Shown here piece after piece: positions 65 through 16,900 of a stretch of DNA of 64,000 nt. Under the pieces are notes generated by a model. It was not told where the DNA came from. It made no database searches and saw only the letters and a list, made by a program, of their open reading frames with translations. How positions within the stretch are numbered: the first letter of the stretch is position 1; every line of letters starts with the position of its first letter. The DNA is from a virus. The translations under genes were made by a program, and so were the position numbers. The DNA lies in IMG/VR virus record IMGVR_UViG_3300010885_026047, positions 1 through 64,000 of that record. One strand, 5' to 3'.

Positions 65-3000
65 ATGGCTGACTTTACACTACACGATCTTGACCTACCT
101 ATAGTTTCACAGACAGCACAAAATGGTTATGCTCCTGATGCAAGTAACGTATCTGCGCCTGTAGACAGATATAGCCCACCTGCTTATACTGAACCTGGAG
201 AAGCTAAAGACGATGATCTCTTTGCTGATATAAGAAAAGCTGGAAACACTCAAAACAAGTACCAGCAGCAGTTTTTTGACTATGATGCTACAAAGGCACA
301 ACAGTTTATAAACACACCACAGTACAAAGAGTTAGGCTTTGATCCAAACCTTGGATACCAGGTAGAAGATCAACGTTATCACGAACTGGAAAGTAACTGG
401 GAAACTACCAAGAGAGTAGGTGAAGGTTTTGCAGTTGGTCTTGGTGAAGGTTTTGCAGGTATGGTTACTAACCTTAAAAATGTAGGAGAGTGGTTTAAAG
501 ACCCTTCTCTACAGGGTTCGTTTAAACAAAAACAACTAGAAGAGATAAACAAACAACAACAAGACTTTCAAAACAGGTTCTATATACCACAAGGTTACAA
601 CCCTACTGTTTTAAACTCAGTAGCAAGAGGGGTACAAGGTTCCGGTAACTTTATAGGAGCTTTAGCTGAAGTTGCAGCTTTCTCCTATCTGACTGGAGGT
701 TTAGCTGGTGCTGTAGGTGGAGTTGCTGGTCTTGGAGAAGCAGTAGGTGCTGCTGGAGATCTTAGTGAACTGAGTGCTGGTTTAAGTGCTCCTGAGATAA
801 TGGCTAACACTGAGAACTTAACAAGTGCTATAAACAACGCAGCTAACCCTACTATGTGGGAACAGGTTGGACAGTTTGCAACTAAAGCAGGTCAGAAACT
901 TCCTTTACCTGGAGCACAAACTGCAGGGTATATAGTAGGTGATGTTTTACAAGGATCTGAAGGTGGGGCGATAGCAACTGTATCCAGAGGTTTTGCAGCT
1001 TTTGCAAACGATATAAACTCTGTAAACACTGCTACAGGTTTTGCAAGTAGTAACGCTGCAAACACCTATCAGCAGTTAGTGAACGATCAGGTAGAAAAGT
1101 ACAAAAAGTATCATAATGGTATAGAACCAGATACAGACACACTTAAAAGTTTTCAGGACAAAGCTTTAAAGTCTGCTAAAGTAGGTGGTGCTATAGATGC
1201 TTACTTTATGTTAGGTCTGGAAAAACTGGCTTTGGGGAACCTTTTAAACTCCCGGTCAACTCTTCAGGAAGCTATAGAGAAAAGTGGTAAAGGTTTCTAT
1301 GACAAGATAGGTATAAAACCAAGTTGGGCTGAAGGTGCTGCTGAAGAGCCTTTGTATATCAGACAACAAGCTAAGTGGTACGACTTTAAAGCAAACTTAA
1401 CTAACAACTACTACGAAGGTCTACGACATATAGGAGCTACAGGTGTGGAGTTTGGAGTAGTGAACAACCTGATGGAAGGTGTTGACAAGGGTATCAGAAG
1501 TTATTTTGATGCTAAGTATGATAACAAAGATATAGATTTTACTGATGCTCTCTTAGACGGTATAGGTCAACAGTTCAGTAAAGAAGGTGCTGGTACTTTT
1601 ATCTCTGGGTTCTTACAAGGAGCTTTGTTACTTGGTATAGGTGGTGCAGCTTTGGGTAAAGTTAAAAACTGGGGTTTAGATAAGGCTGCTGGTAGAACAG
1701 AAGCAGATATAAAGACAAGTGATATAGATGCACAGAACTATGTACAACAGGTAAACGATGCCTGGAAAGATCCACTGAACCCTATCAAAGGTACTATCCA
1801 TGACATGATCCTGCAGAGTGCTTTAGGAGAAGGTTCTAAAACTGCTCTGGGACAAGATGATCGTAAGACCTTCCACGACTTTGCTGATGACAACCAGAGA
1901 AGTTTCCTGATGAAGCTTATCAAAAACGGTATGGCTGATGCATGGGTAGACAGAGCTGTAGAGAAAGCAAGAAGTTTAAGTCAGGATGAACTCTGTCAGT
2001 TTATGACTGTACCAAGTACTCCAGAGAACTTTGAGGCTATAAAAGCACAGATAAACGAACTACCTGCAAGAGTTAAGGACCTGAGAAACATCCGTAAGTA
2101 TATAGACACAAAACTACAGAACCCTTTCAACCCTTGGGCTAAAGACCCTGAAACCGGTAAGAGAAAGTTTGCTGATGGTTCTGTAGAGTTTACAACAGAG
2201 TACAACAACAGGGCTATATACGAGATAGCTAAAGACTATGTAGCTACTATGAAGGATGTAGCTCAAATGGCTATAGTACGTCAGGGAGCTTTGTTAAACG
2301 GTAAAACTGGTACAACAGGTATACTTGATATGCCTTTTGCTAAGAACTTAGGTTTTGCTGATGTGTTTACACTTACTTCTACAGAGTTACTGGATAAGCA
2401 GATAGCTGGTTATCAGGAGTCTGTAGCTATAAGTAAAGATAAAGAGACACAAGAAAGGTTAGAAAAGACTATAGCTTACAAAGAGAAACTTACAGAGTAC
2501 CTGAAAGGTTATGCGGATATACTTAACGAAGGTAGTTCTAAAGACAGGGCACAAAGGATAAAAGCACTGGACGATAAACATAAGGGAGAGTTAGCAGAAG
2601 CCATGTACTACTACCTGGAAACTATGCTGATAAACAGGAACCTGAAAGGAAAGGTTACTGACAGAGTTACACCTCCGGGTATGCAGGAAGTTATAGATGG
2701 TATGGATAAGATGTTAGACTACTACAAGTTAGGAGTAGATCATCATGCTATGTTGCACCAGGTAAACATACTTCTTGATCCTCATATCGTTAGAAAGTTT
2801 GAGAAGTCTTTTATGACTGAAGGTGCTAAGAGACAAGCAGAAGCTAAAGCAGAACAGGAAGCACATACTAAAGATGTAAAACCTGAAGAACCTATAGTTA
2901 CTCCTGAACCAGAAACCAAACCAGGACCAGAGTCAACAAAAGAACCGGAAGTCCCACCAACACCTGAACCACAACCAACTCCTACCCCTAAACCAGAGCC

Positions 3001-6000
3001 TGTTATACCAGAAGTACCACAACCTGTAACTACTTCTCCAGCTATAGAACGGTACAAACAACAAGAGAGAGACTTAAAGACTCTTATAGACAACTTGGAA
3101 GATGGTGTACCTGTTCCAAACGTTGATGCTTTTGATGCTATGATAAAGTCAGGAGATGCTCAAAGGTTGATGGCTGCAGATAAGTTAGCTATACAGCACA
3201 AAGTACCTCTTCAGGAACGTAAAAAGGAGTTACTGGATATAGTACAGGAGTTCTATGACCGAAAGTTACCCGAAGACAAACACGAAGTAAAGAACATAGA
3301 AGGTGATCCAAAGATAGTTGCAGACGGTAACAAGTTTGCTATCTGGAAAAACGGTGACTTTGTAGACAGTACAAGATACGGTTCTGTACGGGAAGCTAAC
3401 AGAGAGTTTGATAAGTACATAGCTGCAAACCATCCACTTATACCAGGTACAGATATCCGTGTTGGTGAGAAAGTCTACAACGAAAACAGTAACGAAGTAA
3501 AACTGGTACAGAGAGACGATAAACTTTATGTACGTCCATGGAACGAAAAGACCAAAAACAAAGACATAGAGATAATTCCTGAAGAGCTATCAGAGTACAG
3601 TAAGGACAAACCAGCAGCCCAAGATAAACCAGTAGAGAGTAGGTTTGATGGTACACAACCAAAGGTGCAGTTCAAACAGTCTACAGCTACAAGTATAGAG
3701 TCGTTCAAACAACCCGGAGAGTTCTCTGCAGAAGGTAGGGTTATAGCCGATCAAAGGTTTGCAGACACAGTTAAAACTATACCACAACAACACCTATCTA
3801 CAGGTGAAGGTTTCTCTATACAAGTTGTACCTAACGATAAGTTTACCGAGAGTTATAGAAGTGCTTTATCCCCACAACTGGTGCAGAAAGCAGACAAGGG
3901 TTTCTGGATACTTCATTACAACGGACAACCTGTAGGAGTTATAGAGAACTCTGGTAAGAACTTGTACAAGACAAAAGATGGTAAAGAGCTAACTATAGAT
4001 CAGCTAACATTACAAGATATAGCTGCTATATATGATATACCAACTACAGGTGACTACACTACATCTCAAAAGGTTTACGACAAACTGCTGGAGAACCACT
4101 TGAACTCTTTAGCTCTTAGTGATCTGCTGAAAGGTAAAGACAGTGTAGAGCTTGACGGAAAGATATCTGTAGACACTAACTATAGCTATAACTGGATAGA
4201 CACTGGAGAAGTAGGGCCTAAGTTAGCCGAACTGGAAGGACTGCAAAGAAACGAGAGAGGTGAAGTGAAGATGTATGTCTGGAACAACTACAAGTCTCCT
4301 GAAGAAGCTGGTTGGGAGATACAGAACACCATGTCTCCTGAAGAAGCACAACAAGCCCTGAAAGTAAAACCTGCCGGTAACCCTAACTACTACTCTGCAG
4401 TTGTAAAACTGGAAAGTGGTGACTATATACCTGTACAACTTACACCGAGACAGATCAGTACTGAAGAACTATCTAACATCTGTACAGCTATATCAGGTAT
4501 AGACACTGACGAGAAACTCAAAGCAGCTAACGGACAACTGAACAAAGTCTTTGTAGCTCTACCAAAAACAGATGAGTTAAGTGGTCTCAAGATATACATA
4601 AACAGTGTAGGAGTTGGTGATGATAACCACTTGTTTGTAACTGTACACAGAAAACTTCCAGGTAAAGACGTACCAACAGAAGAACTTGGTACTGGAAACA
4701 TCTACGGAGCTAAAGGTGAACTACTAAAACTATCCCCTGACGAACTTATAGACAGACTGAACAAAGTACTGCAAAGTGACAAGATAAAAGCAGATATACC
4801 CACACTTACTGTAGATAACTTAAAGTTCCAACCTGACGAAAAGAACATCGCAGAGATGGAAGCAAGTGTCAGAAAGAACCCTATAAAGAGTGTACAAGCC
4901 AGTTATAAGGTTATAGACACAAAAGGAGAACAAAGAGTCTACGAGAACAAACCCCCTGTTCCAAGTGCTCCTGTAGGACCTAAAACACCTGTTACAGATA
5001 TAGAAGCTAAGAGAGGTGATATAGAGAGGAGAAGGCAAGAAGAACTCATCTCTGCTTTTGGCAGTTCGTTTAGTAGAAACGAAGAAGTGATAAGGTCAGG
5101 AAAAAAGGCTGTCATAAGTAGAAATCCTGAGTTAGTTGCACTTTCATCAGACCCTCTTGTAAGTGACAGGAGAGCCCAAGATGTTATAGATGTATATAAC
5201 ACTATAAACCAAAAGTACGACACAGAACTAAAAGCACTTGAACAACAACCAGAGATAAAACCTATCAGTTCACTTGAACAGTTAGCTGATGAGTTAGATC
5301 AGGAAGAGAAAGCTATAAACAGTAAGTACGGAGTTCCAAAGACTCTTGACAAGGGTTTTGCTGTAGAACATGTAGCAGATATAGATAAGTTTAACGAGTT
5401 TGTAAACGAGAACTTACCAGAGTTTCTTCAGGTCGGTGAGTTGTCCGGAGTTGTAGATAACTTGCTTAACAACCGTGTAACAGTTGGTCAGTTTGTAACT
5501 TATCTGGACGAACTTGGGAACGTACAAGGTCGGATAGAAACTGGTAAAGACTTGCCATATAAGTACCATGAGGCTTTTCACGGTATCTTCAGACTACTTC
5601 TTACACCAGAACAACAGAAGCGTCTATATCAGGAAGCCAACAAACAAAACCTTGTAAGTGCCAAACAGTTAGCTGAGTTCCAGAAGTCCCATCCACGGTA
5701 TGCTGATATGGGCAAAGAACAGCTCAAAGAGGAGTATCAGGAAGAGTGGATGGCTGACCAGTTCGATAACCTGTCAAACAAGAGAGAAACACAAGCTAAA
5801 GGTGGTGTAAAAGGTCTTCTGAACCGTATCTGGGACTGGATAAAGTACATGTGGGACAAGCTGACTGGTAATAGGTTAAGGGCTTTGTTCCATGAAGTAC
5901 ATACCGGAGACTACAAGAGTGCTAAACTTCAGGAGAACAGTTTTACAGATAAAGAGTCTGTAGGTGTATCTCTACCAGTACCAAAAGCTATAAAAGTCGG

Positions 6001-9000
6001 TACAGGTGAGACAGAGATAGAACTTAGTAACGGTGATAAAAAAGCAGTTAAGATAGACAGATATCTGCCAAACGATATAGCTACACAGCTATCTAACGAT
6101 ATAACAGCTAACGTTTTACTGGAGATGCAGTCACAGACTTATCCAAGTTTTGACAAAGCTATCAAAGCAGTTATACAGAGATACAGTGATACGTACAGTT
6201 TAAAACACCCTGCAAACATACAGACTTTTGAAGGTATAACTAACCAGGGAGAAAAACGTGAGTGGGCTAAACAACTAAAAGACTACAGTACTGCAGTAAA
6301 CAGTAAAGAGCTTAGAGAGAACGTAGAACAAGGTCTTCGTATACAAGGTATCAAACAGCAGTTACTTGACGAAGATGACACTGACGAAACTACTGGAGAA
6401 CAGTTTGGTAAAGCTAAGAGTTCTATAGGTGGATATGGAGCACAAGACAAAGAACTACGTACCTATATAGCAAGTACTACACGAAAGTTAACTGAACCAG
6501 ATAGTTTTGGACTTACACAACATGCTGATGGTTCACCTATAACCCAGTCAGTTAACAGTGACTATGTGTACAACGGTCTCTTAAAACTACTCTCACAGGA
6601 GTCTGATGTCAGCAAGAACGTACAGAAACTACTTGACTACAGAGATCAGGGAAATAACCCTGACACAGTAGCTGTTATAACCAGGTGGTTGAGAGAAACA
6701 GGTTTTAACGAAGGTCTGTTTAAGTCTACAGGTCAGTTGCAAGTAACTCCTGGTGGAGAGAACCTGTTCAACAAACTTGTCAAGAACTTGTCTGAAGTAA
6801 ACAACCAGTATACCACTGTTATCATGGACCCTATAGATAACAAAGTGAGTGTTGTTGACGCAGGTAGAAGAGGTCCGGAGAGTTACCAGTTTAACCAGGC
6901 AGCTAACGGCTTCTACCAGAACTTGTACAAACAGATAGAAACTTCTACCAACAAAGGAGATAACAAGAAAGCTATAAGTGAGGCTATAAGTCCGTTTAAA
7001 GAACTGATAAAGACTACTAAGAGTATATCAGCTAAACATACACTGATAGAAGATCAACCACTTGCAGAACTGTCTTTAAGACTGTCTAACGAACTATCTG
7101 ATAAGCCGGGTATCTACATACATCCAAACTACATCCAGTTCTCCATAGTATCAGCTAAAGAGCCAAAAGCACGAACAGAGAACCAGTCAGGACAACTTTT
7201 GGTCTACCCACAGGTTAAACCTATGGACATGACAGGTCTTGAACGTGATCTGTTACCAGTTATAGAAGCAGGTAAGAACCCTTTTATACGTCCTGAAGGT
7301 TTAGATAAACCAACTGCTGCTGAAGTGTGGTTACTGAACACGTTTAAGGGAAACGCTCCTTTTGACAGTACTGTAGATAGTATGTCTCACACTAACAGTA
7401 ACGGAGACAGTGTCTACAACTATCAGTATGGTTCGTATAACTCTACAGAGATACAGAAGTTAAACGACAGTGCTTATCTGAAACAGCTCAGAAACAACCC
7501 AGATAGAAATACCTGGTTACTAGATAACCCGGAGTTCACTTCTATGACCAAGCAGTTTGTCTCTATCGGAGGTCTTGACCTGAAAGAGATGTTTGTGGAC
7601 AAGAAAGAGGGAGAAGAACCAGAACTAAACGTACAAGGTAAAGACATAAACAAAACAGGTACAGACTTTGGTGACTTTGGACCAAGAGAAGATAACGCTT
7701 ACAAACTTAGTCTCTATGACGTTTCCAACAACTCTGCAGCTTATAACCAAGATAAGAACGGAGTTGTGTGGTACTCTATACCTGTCTCTCTGGGACCTTT
7801 AGCTGAAAAGGGTACACATCACATGGTCTATCTACCAGTTACAAGGTGTATAGAAAACGGTAAACTTACAGATAAAGTTAAAGATGTCTTGTACCAGGAA
7901 CTACAGACAGAGTGTGACCGGATACAGAGAGTTAAAGCAGAGATAGATAAGGGTAGAAAGCAGGTTATAGACGAAGGTGGAAAATGGATAACTGACTACC
8001 ATGACGGTAAAGAGAAAGGTTTAAAACTGTTGTCTCTTAACGGACTTATGTCTGAAGAACTAAGAACTAAGATAGAAGCAGAACCTGACAAACTGGAAGA
8101 ACACAAAACAGAGTTTCTAAACGGTGCTCAGAAAGAACTGTTTAAACAAGTTGAAGAGTACAAACAACAACTTACAGATCAGGAACTTATAGGTAAAGAC
8201 GGTAAGAACAAACTCTTACCAAAGTACTTGTTTAAAGGCCTTGACGAGAAAAAGAACAGTGCTCTGAACTTGAAAGCAGGACAGTTTGACCATAACTTGT
8301 CTCAGGTCTATATCAACAACTACATCAGCTACTTGGGTATATCCAGGCTCTTGTACGGAGATAAAGCAAAGGTTTCTAAAGATGTACAGGACTGGTGGAA
8401 ACGTATGGCTGGTAACAACGGGCAAGGTATGTCTATGAACCCTATAGTTAGTACTGTAGATAAACCTGCAGTCTCCAGTTATCAACTGATCACTTACCCG
8501 GTTACAGAGTTTACAACTATACATGGGACTAAAGGAGAGAGTGATGACGGTCAGGCCAATGTGACTCCTTATGGATACAAGACTTTGTTAGAAGGAACTG
8601 GTAGGTTAAGTGAACTTCACAACGATCTGATAGAGACAGTTATACGTGGAAAAGATCTTACACTAAAACAGTTCAAAGCAATGCATGAAAACGATGCAGT
8701 GATGAACTCTATCAAAGATATCTACAAAGACACAGATATATACCTGAAGAACTCTGTAGGTATGTTGAACAGACAGGATACTAGCTATAAGGTAAACGGA
8801 GAGTGGGTAGCTTTACCGGGTAGAGAGGTTCTACACGAAAGACTTAACAGTGCTGAAGAACAAGAGAAAGAGAAACAACAACCTGTCTTTATCGGTAACA
8901 CGTCTATCTCTAAAGCTGCTAAAGTCAACGTACCAACAACAGAAGAGATAGAACAAGGTGATGTAGCTAAGACTTATACCCAGATACAGGGAGAGTTTAT

Positions 9001-12000
9001 GAGGTGGCAGACACAGACCCCTATGACTGGTTCTACAGGTAACAAGTCTACACAGCCAGATAAACAGATACTCTCTAACCAGGACGCAAACAAGTCTGTG
9101 TACTTTGATGGTAAACATGTTAAAGCCGGAGAAGTTATCAAGACCTACATGGATAGTAACAGACAGAGGGTTCTTAACAACCTCTTAACTGCTATTTCTG
9201 AAGTCTTTGAACCTATAACTGATCTGAAAGACTTAGACAAGATAGAGTTTGACCAGGCTAAGTTCCAGGACAAAGTTTTACCGACTCTGATGGCTACCGG
9301 AGTAGATGCTCAAACACTTGAACTCTTTCAGGAACACTACGATATAAACCTTCCACCACTAGTAGAAAAGGCTACAAGTATGTGGTTATCAGGTATGATC
9401 AAAGGTGTAAGTAAAGAGAAAGTACCGATGTGGAAGATGACACTTCGTTCTGATGCAGGTATGTCTGTGATGAGAAGGGTTAAAACCTTGACTGAAGATG
9501 GTCAACCAAAGACTTGGGATATAGTTCCTATGGACGAGTTCAAGAAAAACCCAACTTCTTACAAGAAACTATCTGGTGACGACAAGTTCTACGGTTTAGC
9601 TGAAAGTGATCTGGTAGCAGACAGGTTAAGAGATAACGTTCCACAGTACGATGACAACGGTAAAGTCTTGTACTGGTATAGTGAAGCTATGAGACCGTTT
9701 ATGACTGTAGACGAGAAAAAGAACGGTAAGTTCTCAGATGCTCTTGGTTATGGTTTTGGGGCACGTACACCGGGTACAGGTTTTCAGAGCTATAAGAGAG
9801 TACACTGGGTAGACAGGTTATCTGATGTTCTGGGTAACACTATGGTACAGTCAAGGGATGTTATGACTGCTACAGGTGAGGACTTGGATATCGACTCCAA
9901 GTTTGTAGCTATACCTGAGACATACTTTGTGGATAACAGTGACCCTAAAGAACTACAGGAGTTTAAAACTATCGGTGATAAACGACAAGAGATTAAAGCT
10001 GCTATACGAAAGATATCTTCAGACTTTGAGAGAACTGAACACTATGATCCTGCTATCAGCAGACAGGTAAAAGAGCTACGTAAACAGATAGCGCACTTAA
10101 CAGAGAGATATGATGCCGGAGCTATAGAAAAGAGTCAGTACGAACACGATAAACACGATCTTGAGATAGATATCGCTTCCTTGGGTACACCTGAAGGTAA
10201 AGCGGCAAGACATGCTGTTATAAGACAACAGAACGAACTCAAACAGGAACTTAAAGAACTCGATAAGAGATACGATGAACTGAAGGACTCTTTAGATAGA
10301 AGTAAAAAAAGAGTACAGTATGGTGCAGCTATAAGTGATAAAGATAAGTTTGAAGAGTATCTTTTATATAAGTCTCAGAGCAACTCAGTTAAAGATAAAG
10401 TGAAAGAGTTAGAAGGGACTGAAGAAGGGTATATATCGCTTATACTTTCATCTGAACGAAGTATCCTTATATCTGCTCTAAAAGAACTCAAGTTACCTTC
10501 TACACTTGAAGAGTTTACAAAAGCAGGAGGTGATAAACTTAACAACGGAGTGCTTACAAACAGATCACTTCATGCCCAGTTAGCACTTCTGTCTGGAGAG
10601 CATGTGTCCGGTGGTGGGAAAGACGCACTGATAAACAGAGCTACAAGTACACAACCTGTAGAAGATATCATCAAAGACCTTACAGACAAGTTACTGGAAG
10701 GAGAAACAAGTAAGTGGGGCAGAGATATCGCTGACCAGTTACAAGGCAAGACCGGAGACTTGAACAGTATGTTGGGGCAGAACAAAGCTTACGAAACACT
10801 GAAACAAGGTGGTGAAGGTATAGGTGGAGTAGCTAACATGATACAAGCTACTGCAGTTCTAAACCAGTTCAACAAGAAACTGTCTGTACCGTTTACCTTC
10901 GGTGGTGTGCAGTATGATGAGTACAAAGGAGCTAAAGGTGAGCCGGAAGTTACCAGAGATAGGAACGCAGATATCATGGCACAGATACATGTAGATGCAC
11001 CAAAGAACTCTATACCTTCAAAGCTCAAACTTACCAGGGAGTACGCTATGGTACTTACACATATGTTGAAACTTGGTTTACCTCTTGACAGTGCTCTCTT
11101 GTATCCACTAACTGAAGTGTGGGACAGATATGCTAAAAAGGTTGCTTATGGACAGAAACCGTTCAAACTTGGTTATGGTGTAAACGCAGATAAGGAACTA
11201 AGTAAGATGCTCAGTAGTTTGTCTGACGAAGGAGCTAAGAGGGTAGAGCTTAACAACGAGAAGTTAACAGAGTATATCAAAAGTGGTAAGTCTGACAGAG
11301 ATATAGACTACACTCTTTTGGATGACCTGAGAACCATGAAACAGATCACAGAACCTCTTAGGTATATGAGCAGGTTTATGAGGATGGATACTGGTAGGTT
11401 ACTCTCTGACTGGACTGCTATAGATCACGTACAAGAAGGTCTGAAAGAACTTGGTATAGGACTTACTGACGAAGAGTTTCACAAGACACAGAAACCTTTG
11501 GATGTCAGAGATGTGATAGAAAAGAGACATGGCAACATGAGTGCTAACTACGAAGTCTTTAAAGTTATACAGGAACTTGGTAAGAAAGTGTTTATAGAGC
11601 GTTCTCCAGTCTTCAGAGATATACAGAAAGCTACTTTGGCTGAAGTTAAGTTACCGGAGAGTGATAAGATAGCAAGATCTCAACTGAACCATGATATCCG
11701 GTCTTATATATCCCTTACAGCTTACAAGACGTGGTTAGACCAGAAAGGCAGAACAGAGGTTACAGATACTATGAACCAGAACCTACTGTGGGATAACTCT
11801 GACAGTAGTAAGTCTATCATCAAGGTTTTAACTGACCTGAGAGAGCTTACTTCTACAGACAAGGTCAAGAACTACGCACTAAACAGTTTCTTAAACACTG
11901 TACTGAAAGCCAAGAGAACAGAGATAAACACAGTTATAGCTAACACCTGGACAAGGTTAAGTGACCAGCAACAAGCTAAAGTGGTTGGGTCTATAAACGA

Positions 12001-13981
12001 TATGGTCGGTGATAAACGTGGAAGTGTACACAAAGGAGCTTTAACACTCTTAAACTATTTGTTTGTTAAAGACGGTGGACAGTACAAGAACGGTTCTTTT
12101 ATCCGGTTTATACCACCACACATGATGAGAGAGTGGTCAGATAGGATGTCTGCAGTAACAAAAGCCTTGTCTAAACCTATGTCTGAAGAACAGTTCAGAG
12201 ACTTGTTTGGTACAGATCAGGCTACTTTTCAAGATAAGTTTGTAGACAGTTGGGCTACACACAAAGACAGTCAGAAGTTTATAGCAAAAAAAGAGAAGTT
12301 AAAAGAGGGAGATGAGCCGGGATACTACAGGACTATAGAGGGGAAACTGTTTAAAAAGCAGATAGAGGACTACATGAGAAAAGGTCCAAAAGAACCTTTA
12401 GTCTTACCAGAACTACCACAGTACAAAGGAGAAAAAGTGGCTGCTTACAAAGAAGTTTTTGTAGACGGAGACAGTAAACAGTGGAGAGGTGCTAAAGCTG
12501 TGTTTGGTGACTATCCAAAGTCTGTAGAAGAGCAAAGAGCTGCTGAGACAAACGCAGTAAGAACCAACGAAAACAACAAGTACAAGACCTCACGAGAAGC
12601 TCTTTGGAACCAGTATCAGATAGCACCGGGTTTTATAGATGGTAACTGGATATATAGCGATAACGGAGAAACAAGAGGTGACCTAGAAGGACTTAACCCT
12701 GATCAGGTTTTACAAGAGATAAGTGGAGAAAAAACAGAGCCAAAAGTTATGACTTCTGAACCTTCTGTTGTATCTTCAAGCTTTATGAGAAACATCACTT
12801 TTAAAGAACATCCTCTTGCTGACTACCCTTCCAGAACACGTATAAATGCCTCATCTGATGCTACTCTTGCACTTGCTACAGACTTTACTACACCTGGAGA
12901 AAAGCTAACTAAAAACAGTGTTACTGCACAAGGGAAAAAGTACATACCGATAGACCTTAACAAAGGTTTAGACATAACTCCTGAGAGAGTAAGCAAGATC
13001 GTACAGATGTTAAACGAATCTGCAGGTTCTGATATGTTTGCTAAAAAGGAGATATCACTTAACATAGCAGGTAATGGTATATATACCCTGAAGAGTAAGT
13101 ACACCCAACAACAGTTAGACGAGTTCACTTACAAACTTCTTAAAGCTGTAACTGAGTCACCAGATCTGAAAGTAACTATAACTAGTGCTAACAGTGGTGG
13201 ACAAACAGGTATGGATGAGGCAGGTGCAAAAGCAACACAACGGTTAGGTATACCTACTACAGTACTTGCTCCAAAAGGGTACATGTTCAGAGATATAAAC
13301 CACAAAGATATCGCAAACGAACAGCAGTTTAAACAGAGGTTTGAGCAAAAACCTACAGAACCTGTAGTATCTTCATCTAATGGTGTAAAAGCATTTATGA
13401 GACTTAGGTTTGGAAACTTACAAGGAGAACAACTAGTAAATGCTATGATTGAGGATAAGAAAGAGATGTTTGAAGATACTATAAAACTCTTTAAGCAGTT
13501 AAATCCCAATTTATCATCAGCAGAATTGAATAAGGGAATAGAAGATATAAAAAAGAATTATAACTTTATCTCTTCACCAGTACCTACGGAAATAGGAGAG
13601 GGAAGTATTGTTAGTATTAAAGGAAAGAAATATAAGGTACAAGCATCACAGGAGAGTTCATCCGATTTAATGAAGAGAGTTGCTGAAGAAAGAAGTGGTA
13701 AAGTTTATGATGAGTTATCTACTGATGAGTTTTACCAAATGATGGGAGATAAAACTGGTAAGGATGGTTTTGATATACAATCAAGTATATTGTCTTTAAC
13801 TCAAGTATATGACTTAGTTCCTTTAAATGAATGGGATCCTGAAACAAATCCAAATGGAGATGAGCCAATATTTACTATAACTAATCATGAACTAATAGAT
13901 ATGATAGACAAACCTGTTGTACCTTCACAAAGCGATATAACAAAAGAAGAGATAGAACAACAACTAAAACACTGTAAGTAA
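65..13981 (+). CDS. Giant virion/ejection polyprotein with crAss-like two-barrel RNA polymerase, zincin metallopeptidase and circularly permuted SLOG domain
   Basis: 4638 aa. FGARTPGTGFQS...TGEDLDIDS (DxDxD at 9881-9895) resembles the DFDID motif of crAss-like RNAPs. HEAFH (5567-5581) plus downstream EEWMAD. N-terminal Gly/Ala hydrophobic segments and a Pro/Glu linker. YPSRTRINASSDAT...LNIAG...SGGQTGMD near the C-terminus. Confidence 0.85.
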   Translation: MADFTLHDLDLPIVSQTAQNGYAPDASNVSAPVDRYSPPAYTEPGEAKDDDLFADIRKAGNTQNKYQQQFFDYDATKAQQFINTPQYKELGFDPNLGYQVEDQRYHELESNWETTKRVGEGFAVGLGEGFAGMVTNLKNVGEWFKDPSLQGSFKQKQLEEINKQQQDFQNRFYIPQGYNPTVLNSVARGVQGSGNFIGALAEVAAFSYLTGGLAGAVGGVAGLGEAVGAAGDLSELSAGLSAPEIMANTENLTSAINNAANPTMWEQVGQFATKAGQKLPLPGAQTAGYIVGDVLQGSEGGAIATVSRGFAAFANDINSVNTATGFASSNAANTYQQLVNDQVEKYKKYHNGIEPDTDTLKSFQDKALKSAKVGGAIDAYFMLGLEKLALGNLLNSRSTLQEAIEKSGKGFYDKIGIKPSWAEGAAEEPLYIRQQAKWYDFKANLTNNYYEGLRHIGATGVEFGVVNNLMEGVDKGIRSYFDAKYDNKDIDFTDALLDGIGQQFSKEGAGTFISGFLQGALLLGIGGAALGKVKNWGLDKAAGRTEADIKTSDIDAQNYVQQVNDAWKDPLNPIKGTIHDMILQSALGEGSKTALGQDDRKTFHDFADDNQRSFLMKLIKNGMADAWVDRAVEKARSLSQDELCQFMTVPSTPENFEAIKAQINELPARVKDLRNIRKYIDTKLQNPFNPWAKDPETGKRKFADGSVEFTTEYNNRAIYEIAKDYVATMKDVAQMAIVRQGALLNGKTGTTGILDMPFAKNLGFADVFTLTSTELLDKQIAGYQESVAISKDKETQERLEKTIAYKEKLTEYLKGYADILNEGSSKDRAQRIKALDDKHKGELAEAMYYYLETMLINRNLKGKVTDRVTPPGMQEVIDGMDKMLDYYKLGVDHHAMLHQVNILLDPHIVRKFEKSFMTEGAKRQAEAKAEQEAHTKDVKPEEPIVTPEPETKPGPESTKEPEVPPTPEPQPTPTPKPEPVIPEVPQPVTTSPAIERYKQQERDLKTLIDNLEDGVPVPNVDAFDAMIKSGDAQRLMAADKLAIQHKVPLQERKKELLDIVQEFYDRKLPEDKHEVKNIEGDPKIVADGNKFAIWKNGDFVDSTRYGSVREANREFDKYIAANHPLIPGTDIRVGEKVYNENSNEVKLVQRDDKLYVRPWNEKTKNKDIEIIPEELSEYSKDKPAAQDKPVESRFDGTQPKVQFKQSTATSIESFKQPGEFSAEGRVIADQRFADTVKTIPQQHLSTGEGFSIQVVPNDKFTESYRSALSPQLVQKADKGFWILHYNGQPVGVIENSGKNLYKTKDGKELTIDQLTLQDIAAIYDIPTTGDYTTSQKVYDKLLENHLNSLALSDLLKGKDSVELDGKISVDTNYSYNWIDTGEVGPKLAELEGLQRNERGEVKMYVWNNYKSPEEAGWEIQNTMSPEEAQQALKVKPAGNPNYYSAVVKLESGDYIPVQLTPRQISTEELSNICTAISGIDTDEKLKAANGQLNKVFVALPKTDELSGLKIYINSVGVGDDNHLFVTVHRKLPGKDVPTEELGTGNIYGAKGELLKLSPDELIDRLNKVLQSDKIKADIPTLTVDNLKFQPDEKNIAEMEASVRKNPIKSVQASYKVIDTKGEQRVYENKPPVPSAPVGPKTPVTDIEAKRGDIERRRQEELISAFGSSFSRNEEVIRSGKKAVISRNPELVALSSDPLVSDRRAQDVIDVYNTINQKYDTELKALEQQPEIKPISSLEQLADELDQEEKAINSKYGVPKTLDKGFAVEHVADIDKFNEFVNENLPEFLQVGELSGVVDNLLNNRVTVGQFVTYLDELGNVQGRIETGKDLPYKYHEAFHGIFRLLLTPEQQKRLYQEANKQNLVSAKQLAEFQKSHPRYADMGKEQLKEEYQEEWMADQFDNLSNKRETQAKGGVKGLLNRIWDWIKYMWDKLTGNRLRALFHEVHTGDYKSAKLQENSFTDKESVGVSLPVPKAIKVGTGETEIELSNGDKKAVKIDRYLPNDIATQLSNDITANVLLEMQSQTYPSFDKAIKAVIQRYSDTYSLKHPANIQTFEGITNQGEKREWAKQLKDYSTAVNSKELRENVEQGLRIQGIKQQLLDEDDTDETTGEQFGKAKSSIGGYGAQDKELRTYIASTTRKLTEPDSFGLTQHADGSPITQSVNSDYVYNGLLKLLSQESDVSKNVQKLLDYRDQGNNPDTVAVITRWLRETGFNEGLFKSTGQLQVTPGGENLFNKLVKNLSEVNNQYTTVIMDPIDNKVSVVDAGRRGPESYQFNQAANGFYQNLYKQIETSTNKGDNKKAISEAISPFKELIKTTKSISAKHTLIEDQPLAELSLRLSNELSDKPGIYIHPNYIQFSIVSAKEPKARTENQSGQLLVYPQVKPMDMTGLERDLLPVIEAGKNPFIRPEGLDKPTAAEVWLLNTFKGNAPFDSTVDSMSHTNSNGDSVYNYQYGSYNSTEIQKLNDSAYLKQLRNNPDRNTWLLDNPEFTSMTKQFVSIGGLDLKEMFVDKKEGEEPELNVQGKDINKTGTDFGDFGPREDNAYKLSLYDVSNNSAAYNQDKNGVVWYSIPVSLGPLAEKGTHHMVYLPVTRCIENGKLTDKVKDVLYQELQTECDRIQRVKAEIDKGRKQVIDEGGKWITDYHDGKEKGLKLLSLNGLMSEELRTKIEAEPDKLEEHKTEFLNGAQKELFKQVEEYKQQLTDQELIGKDGKNKLLPKYLFKGLDEKKNSALNLKAGQFDHNLSQVYINNYISYLGISRLLYGDKAKVSKDVQDWWKRMAGNNGQGMSMNPIVSTVDKPAVSSYQLITYPVTEFTTIHGTKGESDDGQANVTPYGYKTLLEGTGRLSELHNDLIETVIRGKDLTLKQFKAMHENDAVMNSIKDIYKDTDIYLKNSVGMLNRQDTSYKVNGEWVALPGREVLHERLNSAEEQEKEKQQPVFIGNTSISKAAKVNVPTTEEIEQGDVAKTYTQIQGEFMRWQTQTPMTGSTGNKSTQPDKQILSNQDANKSVYFDGKHVKAGEVIKTYMDSNRQRVLNNLLTAISEVFEPITDLKDLDKIEFDQAKFQDKVLPTLMATGVDAQTLELFQEHYDINLPPLVEKATSMWLSGMIKGVSKEKVPMWKMTLRSDAGMSVMRRVKTLTEDGQPKTWDIVPMDEFKKNPTSYKKLSGDDKFYGLAESDLVADRLRDNVPQYDDNGKVLYWYSEAMRPFMTVDEKKNGKFSDALGYGFGARTPGTGFQSYKRVHWVDRLSDVLGNTMVQSRDVMTATGEDLDIDSKFVAIPETYFVDNSDPKELQEFKTIGDKRQEIKAAIRKISSDFERTEHYDPAISRQVKELRKQIAHLTERYDAGAIEKSQYEHDKHDLEIDIASLGTPEGKAARHAVIRQQNELKQELKELDKRYDELKDSLDRSKKRVQYGAAISDKDKFEEYLLYKSQSNSVKDKVKELEGTEEGYISLILSSERSILISALKELKLPSTLEEFTKAGGDKLNNGVLTNRSLHAQLALLSGEHVSGGGKDALINRATSTQPVEDIIKDLTDKLLEGETSKWGRDIADQLQGKTGDLNSMLGQNKAYETLKQGGEGIGGVANMIQATAVLNQFNKKLSVPFTFGGVQYDEYKGAKGEPEVTRDRNADIMAQIHVDAPKNSIPSKLKLTREYAMVLTHMLKLGLPLDSALLYPLTEVWDRYAKKVAYGQKPFKLGYGVNADKELSKMLSSLSDEGAKRVELNNEKLTEYIKSGKSDRDIDYTLLDDLRTMKQITEPLRYMSRFMRMDTGRLLSDWTAIDHVQEGLKELGIGLTDEEFHKTQKPLDVRDVIEKRHGNMSANYEVFKVIQELGKKVFIERSPVFRDIQKATLAEVKLPESDKIARSQLNHDIRSYISLTAYKTWLDQKGRTEVTDTMNQNLLWDNSDSSKSIIKVLTDLRELTSTDKVKNYALNSFLNTVLKAKRTEINTVIANTWTRLSDQQQAKVVGSINDMVGDKRGSVHKGALTLLNYLFVKDGGQYKNGSFIRFIPPHMMREWSDRMSAVTKALSKPMSEEQFRDLFGTDQATFQDKFVDSWATHKDSQKFIAKKEKLKEGDEPGYYRTIEGKLFKKQIEDYMRKGPKEPLVLPELPQYKGEKVAAYKEVFVDGDSKQWRGAKAVFGDYPKSVEEQRAAETNAVRTNENNKYKTSREALWNQYQIAPGFIDGNWIYSDNGETRGDLEGLNPDQVLQEISGEKTEPKVMTSEPSVVSSSFMRNITFKEHPLADYPSRTRINASSDATLALATDFTTPGEKLTKNSVTAQGKKYIPIDLNKGLDITPERVSKIVQMLNESAGSDMFAKKEISLNIAGNGIYTLKSKYTQQQLDEFTYKLLKAVTESPDLKVTITSANSGGQTGMDEAGAKATQRLGIPTTVLAPKGYMFRDINHKDIANEQQFKQRFEQKPTEPVVSSSNGVKAFMRLRFGNLQGEQLVNAMIEDKKEMFEDTIKLFKQLNPNLSSAELNKGIEDIKKNYNFISSPVPTEIGEGSIVSIKGKKYKVQASQESSSDLMKRVAEERSGKVYDELSTDEFYQMMGDKTGKDGFDIQSSILSLTQVYDLVPLNEWDPETNPNGDEPIFTITNHELIDMIDKPVVPSQSDITKEEIEQQLKHCK

Positions 13982-16900
13982 TGATAGATAGGTGTCCACA
14001 TGGTCCTGACTGGGAGAAACTGAAAAACCGTATAGGTAAGACTGAAGCTATGGGTGTCTGGTTAGAACACGAAAAAGCCGGTACTAAGTATGATCCTATG
14101 TCTTATCCAAGACCTCGTTTCCCTGGAGACTTTGAACATGTCTGGACAGAACAGATAGACGGTATATCTGACTATCAGAAGCTATCAGCACGTAAAAAAG
14201 AACTGGAAGCAGAAGGAGCAAGAGTATCTATACAAGGTAACGGTCTACGTGTATCTATGAGTCCTGTAGAACAAAGACAAGAAAGGTACTACCAGAAAGT
14301 TGCAAAACCTGTTAACTTAGAAGAGCGACTTACAGAGTTTACAAACGGTCTTGGGTTTGAGAGTAAGCACTTAGATAACCTTAAAGACCTTATCGGTTCT
14401 GATGCCATAAGTGCCGTAGATCTGATGAACAAGGTTATCTTATACGGAAAGCACAGTAACTTACATCATGTAGCTAAAGAGACTGCTTATGTAGCTTACT
14501 CCATGTTAGGGCGTAAGAACAAGATAGTTACTGACCTGAAGAGAAACATAGAGTCTATACCTGACTACGATAAGATATATCAGCAGTACAAAGACAAAAG
14601 TCCAAACCTTCCTGATGGAAAGATAAAGGAGCTTATAACTATAGACTTCTTAGCTGATAGTATCAGAAACAACTGGGAAGCTCCTAAAGATAGTTATACA
14701 AACAGAAAGAGTGAGTTCTGGAGCAAAGCTGACTTTCCACCTGCTACTAAAAAGACTATAGGCAGTATACTTAGACAGATATGGGAGAGCCTGAAGAGTC
14801 TCTTTGTAAAGTCTGATAAGAACAGAGTACATGTAGGTGAGTTAGCTGATGATCTTGCTAACGACATCTTATCCAAAAACTATCAGAAGTTCCAGACAGA
14901 ACTTGCTCCTGATCAACAGAGAGTTAACTATGAAGAGACTATAGCTAAAGACCCTGTAGCTAAGAAGATAGTAGAGAGGTTTCATGATATGGGACTTACA
15001 CTAACTGGTAGTTTATCCGTTAGAAAACAAGGTACTTTATACAGAACACCTGACGAGAACTTACATGACTTAGACTTTACTGTTCAAAACCATCTTGTTA
15101 ACAAGGAACTACAGGAAGACATCAGAAAAGCAAAGTATCTTGCCTATGACTACGGGCAAAACTTGGTATCTAAAGTTTTCCATAAACAGATAATAGAAAA
15201 CATAGATAACTACTCATTTTTCAAGAACATCAAAAAGAACTTCCCGGAGTTTGAGATAACTAAGAGTTTTGTAGATAAAGATAACCGTATCTGTATAGCT
15301 GGAAAGATAGGAGAACATGGGATAGACCTCTTTATAAAACCAAAGGAACATGACCGGTTAGACAAAGACGAACAAGGTTACCAGGACTGGAAACAAGTCT
15401 TTTTAGAGAAGTTGAGACTAGGTAGAGCTAAAGATATGTTAGACTTTGTACACTATAAACCTTTTAACATAGACGAGAACGGAAAGTTTGCACAGATACC
15501 AAGTTTCAGACACTTTACGTTTGAGAAAGAAAGTCCTGTTAAACAAGCCCCTATCTCTTTTCAGAAAACCTCAACAAAAGAAAAACCTATACCAGAACTC
15601 GACAAAGTAGTAGAGAAGTTCCTATCCAAAGCAAACGTAGACGTACAAAGACTTAAAGACGAAGGTCAGGACTTTGCAGCTATGTATGAACCGTTTAAAA
15701 AGACTGTCTCTGTAGTAGACGGTAAAGCAGATATAACTACACTGGGAGAAGAAGCTACTCACGTTTATGTCAGGATGTTGGACAAAGACAGTAAGCTCTA
15801 CAGAGACATCATAAAAGACGTAAGAAACAGAGATGAGTTTGACGAAGTGTATGAACAGTACAAAGATGATCCGCAGTATCAGAAAGACGGAGAACCTGAC
15901 GAAGAGAAGATAGCTGAAGAAGCTGCTGGAAAGATAGCTGCAAAGGTTATAGCTGGTAAGTTTAAAGACCAGAAAGCTATGAAGTGGTGGGAAAGGTTGT
16001 GGAACTACATCAAGTCTCTGTTTAAAGACAAGAAGTGGGAAGATACTATAGCTGAAGATATACTGGGAGCTAAAACTACACGACTATCTAAAGAGAAGAT
16101 ACGTAAGATGGAGGAAGCTGCTGAACGAGGTGAGATATACTACCAGAAACTCGATCATGTATCTGATGACGCTAAAAAGTATATAGAAGACCTGCTATCC
16201 AGTAAACACACTTCAGATGTACAAAAAGCTCTTGTAAAAGCCTTCTATCTGAAAGACGAAGGTTATGAGAAAGTGGCAGAACATCTTGGTGTAAAGCCAC
16301 ATATACCAGCTATGTTGATCAAAAAAGAGAACGGTTTACCTGTTCACAAACACATGGATGTACAAGGGAGAGAGTATCCAGGTATAACAACTTTGATAAA
16401 GGGGAAACTGTCAGAAACTCAACAAGCAGACTTACAGTGGATAGCTGATATAGGTACAGATGTACATAGTATCTTAGAAGGGCTTGCTATAGATAAGAAA
16501 GTAGAAGAGATAGAAACATCTCATATACCCGATGATATAAAACGAACTGCTTATAAGATACTTGGTGCTTTTATAGAAGACTACAAAGCTAAAGGTTATA
16601 TAGCACTACCTGAAGTAGAAGCTATAGATCCTGTTAGTGGGGTAGCTACAGCTATAGACCTGTTACTCTTATCTCGTGATGGTACTGATAACAAGATAGT
16701 AGATCTAAAAAACTCTCTAACTGCAGCTCTGATAAAAGATGCAAAGACTGGAAAAGACCGAAAAAGTGATAAGTATCTCAGTTCATGGGAAATGGAGGAA
16801 GGTTCTGTCTTTAAAGCTGCAGGTATAGAGCTATCTAAAGACCTGCAACATGCTATCCAGTTAGGTTGCTGTGGGAAACTGATGGAGCTACAAGGAGTTC

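What the first reader, a model, noticed from the sequence alone, without database searches (positions are those of the whole stretch)
12765..13927. Repeat-bounded swappable cassettes at the RNAP C-terminus
Seen: a 14-bp direct repeat, CTGT(T/A)GTA(T/C)CTTCA (encoding VVSS/VVPS linkers), occurs at 12765, 13362 and 13914. The first interval holds the SLOG domain. The second holds an unknown ~180-aa domain that is rich in AAT/ATT precisely between the repeats, so it looks recently acquired. Inference: the repeats act as in-frame recombination joints that plug new effector domains into an injected protein.
Basis: partly seen in the sequence, partly recalled or inferred. Interest (0 to 1): 0.78.

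Follow-up and report, generated by a model that had tools for sequence, protein, structure and literature searches.

The report
Swappable domain cassettes on phage polymerase
The tail end of a giant crAss-type phage RNA-polymerase protein is a string of small add-on domains separated by one short repeated in-frame linker, and related phages carry different add-ons at that linker; this is a clade-specific example of the known "polyvalent protein" strategy, and whether the repeat is itself the recombination site is still unproven.

Summary
CTGTWGTAYCTTCA occurs three times (12765, 13362, 13914; 0 expected), always in the same codon phase of one 4638-aa ORF (65-13981). It encodes S/P-V-V-S/P-S.

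- Interval 1 is a cpYpsA/SLOG domain.
- Interval 2 holds two small modules of unknown function. It has the lowest GC of the whole 64-kb window (0.314 vs 0.404), and the best-fit start of the low-GC segment is 13363.
- The ORF is a crAss-like virion-RNAP polyprotein by motif: HEAFH zincin and an invariant DLDID loop.

Relatives support cassette swapping. xPVV[PST][SL] ends the backbone in all five closest homologues (39-53% identity). After it they carry nothing but a tail, DUF7831 plus others, an AlkB-like domain plus a different SLOG, or unknown modules. All of them end in a conserved Cys-bearing tail.

That the 14-bp repeat is the recombination substrate is inferred, not shown.
- Within the genome, the three copies share more DNA identity than codon bias predicts (P about 3e-4 to 3e-3).
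- Across phages, shared codon bias could explain the identity.
- One internal module boundary lacks the repeat.
- No population variants were seen.

The scan has met this phenomenon before on other genomes, with other linkers. Verdict: new variant of a known kind (polyvalent proteins).

The parts
65..13981 (+). Giant ORF of 4638 aa (P0001): a crAss-like virion-RNAP polyprotein or polyvalent protein. Its stop overlaps the ATG of the next giant ORF (TAATG).
   Evidence: It is homologous over its full length (39-53% identity) to five 4046-4868-aa metagenomic proteins.
5567..5581 (+). HEAFH (HExxH) zincin metallopeptidase motif, residues 1835-1839.
   Evidence: The motif is invariant in alignment A1. 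It aligns to EFHEAYH of the cr10_1 giant protein. 56 of 126 related giant proteins carry [FY]HE[AS][FYWL]H.
9881..9895 (+). DLDID, the DFDxD-type catalytic loop of crAss-like RNAP, residues 3273-3277.
   Evidence: D3273, D3275 and D3277 are invariant in A1. 87 of 126 related giant proteins have [STA]G.D[FLY..]D.D. The loop aligns to TGSDFDIDK of cr10_1 (E 0.002). The motif definition comes from Drobysheva et al., bioRxiv 10.1101/2020.03.07.982082.
12758..12778 (+). Joint 1: GAA CCT TCT GTT GTA TCT TCA = E P S V V S S. This is the end of the conserved backbone.
   Evidence: S4231, V4235 and V4236 are invariant in six homologues, within an otherwise poorly conserved stretch.
12785..13342 (+). 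SLOG (cpYpsA-type) cassette, residues 4241-4426.
   Evidence: Pfam PF12694 and phrog_10774. It is 55-73% identical to SLOG modules at N-terminal, internal or C-terminal positions of over 100 giant proteins. Homology starts 7 aa after joint 1 and ends 7 aa before joint 2.
13358..13375 (+). Joint 2: GAA CCT GTA GTA TCT TCA = E P V V S S.
   Evidence: The best-fit start of the low-GC segment is 13363.
13376..13621 (+). Module 2A: a helical module of about 80 aa, function unknown (residues about 4437-4519).
   Evidence: 59-61% identical to segments of P0121 (5206 aa), P0122 and P0123. There it is preceded by PVETS, PVQTS or AVVSS linkers and followed by unrelated domains.
13622..13912 (+). Module 2B: an alpha/beta module of about 105 aa, function unknown (residues about 4509-4616). 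It joins 2A through SPVPTE, without the repeat.
   Evidence: 34-36% identical to P0124 and P0125. No Pfam, PHROG, PDB or Atlas match.
13913..13930 (+). Joint 3: CCT GTT GTA CCT TCA CAA = P V V P S Q, the form typical of the clade.
   Evidence: The same peptide stands at junctions in P0011, P0019 and P0035.
13931..13981 (+). Conserved C-terminal tail ...KEEIEQQLKHCK plus the stop codon; it carries the near-terminal Cys.
   Evidence: Tail columns I4630 and C4637 are invariant in A1. 104 of 126 giant proteins have a Cys in their last 8 residues, against 0.9 expected.

Best explanation
ORF 65-13981 encodes a crAss-like virion RNA-polymerase polyprotein, which is a 'polyvalent protein'. Its last ~400 residues form a slot array. 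Between the conserved end of the backbone and a conserved Cys-bearing C-terminal tail sit small accessory cassettes: a SLOG domain, a helical module 2A and an alpha/beta module 2B. A clade-typical linker, x-P-V-V-(S/P)-S-(Q), precedes the first cassette, the second block and the tail.

Shown: the linker recurs in one reading phase. Relatives with homologous backbones and tails carry different cassettes, or none, after the same linker. The 2A+2B block is compositionally foreign, with its left edge at joint 2.

Inferred: cassettes are gained, lost and replaced by in-frame recombination between linker-coding sequences (15-21 nt of near-identity), helped by homologous backbone and tail flanks, during co-infection. 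The phage encodes a UvsX-like recombinase and a RecE-like exonuclease. Direct repeats also permit in-frame deletion of a cassette. The linker is probably also kept by selection on the peptide, as an extended spacer or possibly a processing site. That selection would in turn preserve the DNA microhomology.

From the literature on related phages, the cassettes presumably enter the host with the polymerase as early helper or counter-defence functions. For viral YpsA-like SLOG domains the published proposal is action on ADP-ribose-derived or nucleotide signals.
For: - Repeat statistics and codon phase.
- Given the three peptides and this ORF's codon usage, DNA identity as high as observed has P = 2.5e-4, or 2.9e-3 if Ser is limited to TCN codons. 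The three copies therefore share DNA ancestry.
- The GC change point is 13363-13989, and interval 2 has the lowest GC in the 64 kb.
- PVV[PST][SL] occurs 10 times in 511,457 residues of 126 giant proteins. Nine of these lie in the last 550 residues of the P0001 clade, at cassette junctions.
- Architectures in relatives: P0002 and P0004 have backbone, joint and a 57-aa tail. P0035 has joint, AlkB-like 2OG oxygenase (4073-4250), joint, then cpYpsA (4285-4443). P0011 has joint, DUF7831, then further PSQxMEPV-type joints.
- L178 versus P0003: flanks are 75% and 88% identical, but 105 aa versus 280 aa (including a SLOG) are exchanged between the joint and the tail.
- L014 versus P0005: a SLOG is present or absent about 20 aa upstream of a PVVPSQ joint.
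- Zincin and DFDxD motifs.
- Literature on virion packaging and the polyprotein. The polyvalent-protein concept, including the idea of recombinational variability: PMC5512222.
- UvsX-like recombinase and exonuclease VIII-like genes lie in the window.
Against: - Breakpoints are therefore known only at the protein level.
- A codon-free scan of IMG/VR found only two real joints of this kind. L052 has the same five codons and L178 differs by one synonymous base. Shared codon bias alone gives 2-7% per joint, so DNA-level fixation across phages is not demonstrated.
- The 2A/2B boundary (SPVPTE) has no repeat, yet 2A and 2B occur separately elsewhere.
- Flanking peptide repeats around SLOG are rare: 4 of 103 proteins, against 0.6% in the null.
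- 14-21 nt is short for homologous recombination.
- No joined forms were seen in the source sample, which offered only low-depth contigs.
- The support interval for the left GC boundary (13224-13509) also allows a crossover in the highly conserved 3' end of the SLOG (DI.NEQQFK.RF).
Confidence: 0.55

Rival explanations
1. The linker is a functional peptide and the DNA repeat is a by-product. Under this reading x-PVV(S/P)SQ is kept because the protein needs it, either as an extended inter-domain spacer or as a processing site. The site could be cut by the HEAFH zincin in the same polypeptide, or by a maturation protease, to release cassettes after packaging or ejection. Recombination would be illegitimate and could occur anywhere. 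Breakpoints appear at linkers only because recombinants that cut through domains are lost.
For: The motif is conserved as a peptide in homologues of 39-53% identity. It sits as a conserved island (GE..VM.S.xPVV) within a poorly conserved ~80-aa stretch. Degenerate variants such as TSVPSQSMEPV, QTPSQTMEPV and EQPQQM mark further junctions. An HExxH domain lies in cis. The literature proposes cleavage of such fused polyproteins, and autoproteolysis in polyvalent proteins. Shared codon bias explains much of the cross-phage DNA identity. Both joints are coil with low pLDDT in the model, which is poor overall.
Against: Within this genome the three copies are more alike in DNA than the peptide plus codon usage predicts: TCA is a 14% codon yet is used in all three copies. 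The motif is absent from the boundaries between the zincin, RNAP and other large parts of the polyprotein, where cleavage would be expected; all three copies lie in the last 405 residues. No cleavage data exist.
Confidence: 0.33
2. Vertical descent with differential loss. An ancestral long cassette train with duplicated linkers has been trimmed in different lineages, by slippage or single-strand annealing between the direct repeats. Under this reading there is no import of new domains at the joints.
For: Direct in-frame repeats favour deletion. P0002 and P0004 look like the minimal form.
Against: Interval 2 is compositionally foreign. Relatives carry unrelated cassettes in the same slot, such as DUF7831, an AlkB-like domain and a differently permuted SLOG. 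The same cassettes occur in giant proteins whose backbone end gave no BLAST match to this one.
Confidence: 0.08
3. Chance or generic linker composition. Pro/Ser/Val-rich linkers recur without any shared origin or role.
For: Other clades use different P/S/T/Q-rich linkers around SLOG, such as QPSTSV and TTQP.
Against: No shuffle out of 100 gave even one match. The motif is strongly enriched by position. DNA identity exceeds the codon-bias expectation.
Confidence: 0.02

Closest known systems
Polyvalent proteins of phages and conjugative elements (Iyer, Burroughs, Anand, de Souza, Aravind 2017, PMC5512222)
   Same: It is a very large phage protein that joins a zincin-type peptidase motif, a polymerase and small conflict-type domains such as SLOG. 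Relatives add NADAR/YbiA, ART-PolyVal, AlkB-like, zeta-toxin or kinase, and PIF1-helicase domains. Domain architecture is mosaic, and that paper already raises recombinational variability and autoproteolysis as possibilities.
   Different: Here the variable part is a defined slot array between a conserved backbone end and a conserved Cys-bearing tail. The junctions are marked by one recurring in-frame linker. A search of that paper found no occurrence of the word 'linker'.
crAss-like virion RNA polymerase (phi14:2 gp66; PhiCrAss001 gp47/gp49/gp50 cargo proteins)
   Same: It has a DFDxD-type loop (DLDID) and a zincin domain, as in phi14:2 gp65. It is a fused 'huge polyprotein' of the kind mentioned by Drobysheva et al.. 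A SLOG is also present in the giant proteins of cr10_1 (C-terminal) and PhiCrAssBcn1 (N-terminal).
   Different: Sequence similarity to cultured crAss phages is marginal outside the SLOG (E 0.002 and 0.36). No PDB match was found by sequence. The phage comes from a freshwater sample. Virion packaging has not been tested for it.
Polymorphic toxin systems: CdiA (VENN motif) and Rhs (PxxxxDPxGL motif) with swappable C-terminal domains (Poole et al. 2011, PMC3150448)
   Same: A short conserved peptide motif sharply marks where related proteins diverge into different C-terminal modules. Modules are exchanged between loci.
   Different: There are no orphan or silent cassettes carrying the joint elsewhere in the 113.6-kb genome. 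No immunity genes are evident. Several cassettes stand in series, each behind a joint. A conserved tail follows the variable part instead of the variable part being terminal.
The same phenomenon noted earlier in this scan on other genomes (e1-5347233, e1-5953250, e1-5956441, e1-6018558, e1-6026562)
   Same: Those notes describe a C-terminal cassette train on a crAss-type virion RNAP, repeated in-frame linkers, and relatives that swap domains at the linkers.
   Different: The linker differs: PVV(S/P)S here, against for example (KA)TxQPSTSV there. Cross-phage letter-for-letter DNA fixation, as reported there, was not demonstrable for this linker.

Membership tests
Polyvalent proteins (Iyer et al. 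2017) | A very large single polypeptide of a phage or conjugative element that combines several unrelated enzymatic or effector domains | tested here: met
   The protein has 4638 aa, with an HEAFH zincin motif, a DLDID RNAP loop and a Pfam cpYpsA SLOG.
Polyvalent proteins (Iyer et al. 2017) | Variable, mosaic domain architecture among relatives | tested here: met
Polyvalent proteins (Iyer et al. 2017) | Packaged in the virion and delivered into the host | not testable with these tools
   Known only by analogy to phi14:2 and PhiCrAss001.
crAss-like virion RNAP | DFDxD catalytic motif in a large protein | tested here: met
   TATGEDLDIDS at 3268-3278. The three Asp are invariant in A1, and 87 of 126 relatives carry the motif.
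crAss-like virion RNAP | Significant sequence or structural similarity to the phi14:2 gp66 two-barrel fold | tested here: inconclusive
   No PDB hit was found with the single sequence or with the A1 profile. BLAST to the cr10_1 giant protein gives E 0.002 over 3016-3281. hhalign reported only the SLOG. The fold was not modelled.
SLOG superfamily, cpYpsA family (PF12694) | A match above Pfam's gathering score, and the GGQTG-type Gly-rich loop | tested here: met
   32 bits against a cutoff of 26.2. SGGQTGMDEAG lies at about residue 4377. The match covers only profile positions 44-111, and the Gly loop lies C-terminal to it, so the order differs from the Pfam model.
Polymorphic-toxin-type cassette systems (CdiA/Rhs) | A conserved peptide motif that marks the variable C-terminal region | tested here: met
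Polymorphic-toxin-type cassette systems (CdiA/Rhs) | Orphan or silent cassettes carrying the motif near the main gene | tested here: not met
   Only the three copies exist in the 113,639-bp record; the hits with 2 mismatches look like noise.
Polymorphic-toxin-type cassette systems (CdiA/Rhs) | A cognate immunity gene after each toxin module | not tested
   The cassettes are fused in series in one ORF, and the next gene is another giant virion-type ORF.

The most novel reading that the evidence does not exclude
The PVV(S/P)SQ joint, and the analogous linkers of other clades, could be a dedicated dual-purpose 'plug-in socket' of crAss-type virion polymerases. At the DNA level it would be an in-frame microhomology that lets co-infecting phages exchange payload domains without breaking the frame or the essential Cys-bearing tail. 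At the protein level it would be the site where the in-cis zincin releases each payload after ejection. That would make it a phage counterpart of the VENN/DPxGL junctions of polymorphic toxins, but serial and internal.
Probability: 0.2. Interest if true: 0.75.

Novelty: new variant of a known kind. Interest (0 to 1): 0.5.

Why it matters
If the joints really are exchange points, they give a simple rule for how abundant crAss-type phages re-equip the protein they deliver with their DNA. They would also mark precise boundaries for predicting and testing injected helper or counter-defence domains, including the two unknown modules found here. Engineered payload swaps in laboratory phages could use the same boundaries. 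The near-universal terminal cysteine in otherwise cysteine-poor giant proteins points to a packaging or tethering requirement that has not been explained.

Tried and rejected
- Scans with the backbone found no relative. These were search for related loci with window segments or alignment A1 in viral contigs, metagenome contigs and genome contigs.
- blastn against the phage collection gave no match.
- Read laying: the likely source run X1 gives only short, identical, low-depth contigs and no joints at the repeats. Run X3 holds a ~90% relative that covers 12520-12670 and 13939-14089 but not the cassettes. A part without cover is not evidence, so this was not used.
- Function of interval 2 stays unknown.
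  - There was no PHROG match, and Pfam matched nothing in the ORF beyond the SLOG.
  - There were no homologues of similar length, and only P0122 and P0123 among longer proteins.
  - The ESM Atlas gave no usable hit.
  - The single-sequence AlphaFold model is poor (pLDDT 54), and Foldseek against the PDB gave nothing below E 0.5.
  - An alignment with whole giant proteins misaligned module 2B, so it was not folded.
- The idea that module 2A is a copy of the ancestral tail module was rejected (shuffle P 0.06-0.44).
- Cross-genome 'DNA-fixed joint': hits to the exact 18-mers (L014, L052; L020 is doubtful) were selected by their DNA. The codon-free scan gives only n = 2, and shared codon bias gives 2-7% per joint. 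This is not claimed.
- The 116 other loci fetched by cassette homology contain no further PVV joints.
- hhalign of A1 against the PhiCrAssBcn1 'putative RNA polymerase' returned only the SLOG.

Full report
**Observation.** The 14-mer CTGTWGTAYCTTCA occurs exactly three times in the window, at 12765, 13362 and 13914 on the + strand. None is expected from dinucleotide shuffles. No other copy with 1 mismatch or fewer exists in the 113,639-bp virus record that contains the window.

All three copies lie in one ORF, 65-13981, of 4638 aa (P0001), and in the same codon phase. The codons are TCT GTT GTA TCT TCA (SVVSS, residue 4234), CCT GTA GTA TCT TCA (PVVSS, residue 4433) and CCT GTT GTA CCT TCA (PVVPS, residue 4617). 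The spacings are 199 and 184 codons. Copies 1 and 2 extend upstream: GAACCT(TCT)GTTGTATCTTCA against GAACCTGTAGTATCTTCA.

Take the three peptides as given and draw codons by this ORF's usage. DNA identity as high as observed then has P = 2.5e-4. If serine is confined to TCN codons, P = 2.9e-3. TCA is a 14% codon in this ORF yet is used in all three copies. The copies therefore share DNA ancestry and are not merely a convergent peptide.

**The intervals.** Interval 1 is a SLOG domain. Pfam PF12694 cpYpsA matches at 32 bits against a cutoff of 26.2, and phrog_10774 covers residues 4241-4420.

Interval 2 is two modules, not one domain.
- Module 2A (about 4437-4519) is 59-61% identical to segments of P0121, P0122 and P0123.
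- Module 2B (about 4509-4626) is 34-36% identical to P0124 and P0125.
- In those proteins the two modules occur separately and next to other domains.
- The 2A/2B boundary in the window (SPVPTE) has no copy of the repeat.

Interval 2 has GC 0.314 against a window mean of 0.404, lower than every other 538-bp window sampled across the 64 kb. Its GC3 is 0.20-0.23 against 0.35 in the backbone. The maximum-likelihood low-GC segment is 13363-13989. The 2-lnL support is 13224-13509 on the left and 13832-14051 on the right. The left edge therefore coincides with joint 2. A crossover in the conserved 3' end of the SLOG cannot be excluded.

No function could be assigned to 2A or 2B.

**What the protein is.** Pfam finds only the SLOG, and no solved structure matches by sequence. 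Other evidence places the protein among crAss-like polymerases.
- The five closest homologues (4046-4868 aa, 39-53% identity over the full length) keep an invariant HEAFH zincin motif at 1835-1839.
- They also keep an invariant D-x-D-x-D loop, TATGEDLDIDS at 3268-3278.
- 87 of 126 related giant proteins carry [STA]G.D[FLY..]D.D.
- The loop aligns with TGSDFDIDK of the 4460-aa protein of crAss-like phage cr10_1 (E 0.002). More weakly, it aligns with the 'putative RNA polymerase' of PhiCrAssBcn1.

Drobysheva et al. define crAss-like virion RNAPs by a DFDxD motif. They note that in some phages the RNAP, a zincin-containing protein and a third protein are fused into one huge polyprotein that is 'likely cleaved'. 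In PhiCrAss001 these proteins are capsid cargo. The 'RNAP' and 'injected' labels therefore rest on motif-level evidence plus the literature. Neither the fold nor packaging was tested.

The 120 giant proteins retrieved with the C-terminal region also carry NADAR/YbiA, ART-PolyVal, DUF7831, AlkB-like, zeta-toxin or kinase, and PIF1-helicase domains. This is the 'polyvalent protein' class of Iyer et al. 2017.

Relatives do vary at the joints. In alignment A1 the backbone ends in a conserved island, GE..VM.S.xPVV, inside an otherwise poorly conserved stretch. S4231, V4235 and V4236 are invariant. Downstream of the joint the relatives differ.

| Protein | What follows the joint |
|---|---|
| P0002, P0004 | Only a 57-residue tail |
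| P0011 | DUF7831, then two further modules behind TSVPSQSMEPV and QTPSQTMEPV |
| P0019 | About 385 unknown residues |
| P0035 | AlkB-like 2OG oxygenase (4073-4250), a second joint SVKPVVPSQQM, then a cpYpsA in the standard Pfam order (4285-4443) |

All six proteins end in a related tail, (D/E)EI..LK.C.. Across 511,457 residues of 126 giant proteins, PVV[PST][SL] occurs ten times. Nine of these are in the last 550 residues of this clade, at such junctions.

Homology of the SLOG to its nearest relative (P0005, 73%) begins 7 residues after joint 1 and ends 7 residues before joint 2. The last 634 residues of the P0001 backbone found no BLAST match in P0005.

**Two natural experiments from IMG/VR loci.**
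- L178 and P0003 are 75% identical up to and through SAQPVVSSQPMxPVQQP, and 88% identical in the last 60 residues. Between these flanks, 105 residues in L178 replace 280 residues in P0003, which include a SLOG.
- L014 is a relative of P0005 that lacks P0005's SLOG. The gap lies about 20 residues upstream of its QQPVVPSQ joint.

**Is the DNA repeat itself the joint?** This is where the reading stays an inference.

In favour:
- The within-genome DNA identity exceeds the codon-bias expectation.
- The copies share one codon phase.
- The compositional edge lies at joint 2.
- Exact 18-mers from the window's joints recur in-frame, near the C-termini of giant ORFs of other phages. L052 has a backbone only 30% identical to P0001, and L014 is a P0005-type protein.

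Against:
- Those 18-mer hits were selected by their DNA.
- A scan free at all wobble positions (PVV[PS]SQ[PQ]M, with serine as TCN) found five chance hits with unrelated codons and only two real joints. L052 reads CCT GTT GTA TCT TCA, and L178 reads CCT GTT GTA TCT TCG.
- These phages share a strong bias to CCT, GTW and TCT, which alone gives a 2-7% chance of the same five codons.
- Flanking peptide repeats around SLOG cassettes are uncommon. Four of 103 proteins have at least 5 of 6 residues matching, against 0.6% of mismatched controls.
- The genome holds no silent cassettes carrying the joint.
- Contigs of the probable source run show no joined forms.

**Rival reading.** The main rival is that the linker is kept for the protein, as an extended spacer or a processing site for the in-cis zincin. 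On that reading, breakpoints appear at linkers because only domain-preserving recombinants survive. Three points weigh against it as the sole explanation. First, the three copies in this genome share more DNA identity than the peptide plus codon usage predicts. Second, the motif is absent from the junctions between the large parts of the polyprotein. Third, there is no cleavage evidence. The two readings are compatible and may both hold. This resembles polymorphic toxins, where the VENN and PxxxxDPxGL motifs mark the variable C-terminal modules that are exchanged between loci.

**Verdict.**
- The cassette interpretation is supported by relatives.
- The specific mechanism, recombination at the 14-bp repeat, is plausible but unproven.

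The phenomenon belongs to the known polyvalent-protein theme. Earlier agents of this scan have recorded it on other genomes with other linkers, and I saw one of those linkers, QPSTSV, flanking SLOG in P0083, P0087 and P0090. The contribution here is a clade-specific joint, evidence for a recently imported two-module block, and the conserved Cys-bearing tail downstream of the slot.

Noticed in passing
window 13931-13978 (tail of P0001); also P0002-P0126, L001 and L002: 104 of 126 related giant proteins have a Cys within their last 8 residues, although Cys makes up only 0.09% of these proteins (0.9 expected). P0001 has 5 Cys in 4638 aa, against 1.4% Cys in other ORFs of the window. The giant proteins of cr10_1 and PhiCrAssBcn1 have a Cys 10-11 residues from the end. 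The function is unknown; a tether, a disulfide or a packaging signal are possible.
   Followed up: partly
window 12785-13342: This SLOG has its SGGQTGMDEAG loop (about residue 4377) C-terminal to the part that matches Pfam cpYpsA positions 44-111. In P0035 the same loop opens the domain. The two SLOG cassettes found in this slot are therefore circular permutants of each other.
   Followed up: partly
window 13979-13983: The stop codon of the 4638-aa ORF overlaps the ATG of the next giant ORF (13981-20415, 2144 aa) as TAATG. The two virion-type giants are probably translationally coupled. The second ORF has no Pfam, PHROG or PDB match and no terminal Cys.
   Followed up: partly
window 14932-16058 and 15418-17223: The second giant ORF has its own three-copy short direct repeat families: 20 nt GAAGAGACTATAGCTAAAGA-like and 24 nt GTAGCTACAGCTATAGACCTGTTA-like. 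These may be repeated sub-domain units.
   Followed up: no
window 29807-31916 and 35691-37265: GIY-YIG/HNH homing-endonuclease-like ORFs sit inside the replication module. A second low-GC patch lies near 30500.
   Followed up: no
L178:3-1928 versus P0003: A pair of close relatives (flanks 75% and 88% identical) exchange the whole segment between the PVVSSQPMxPVQQP joint and the tail. This is the cleanest example of a swap at this linker family.
   Followed up: yes
P0011 C-terminal 460 residues: Degenerate versions of the joint (TSVPSQSMEPV, QTPSQTMEPV) separate three further modules. The core of the motif may therefore be PSQxM(EPV) rather than PVV.
   Followed up: partly
run X3 laid on window 8000-17000: A 2025 freshwater metagenome holds a relative about 90% identical over parts of the backbone and 98.7% identical at 13939-14089. 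It would be a good place to look for an alternative cassette set once reads or longer contigs are available.
   Followed up: no
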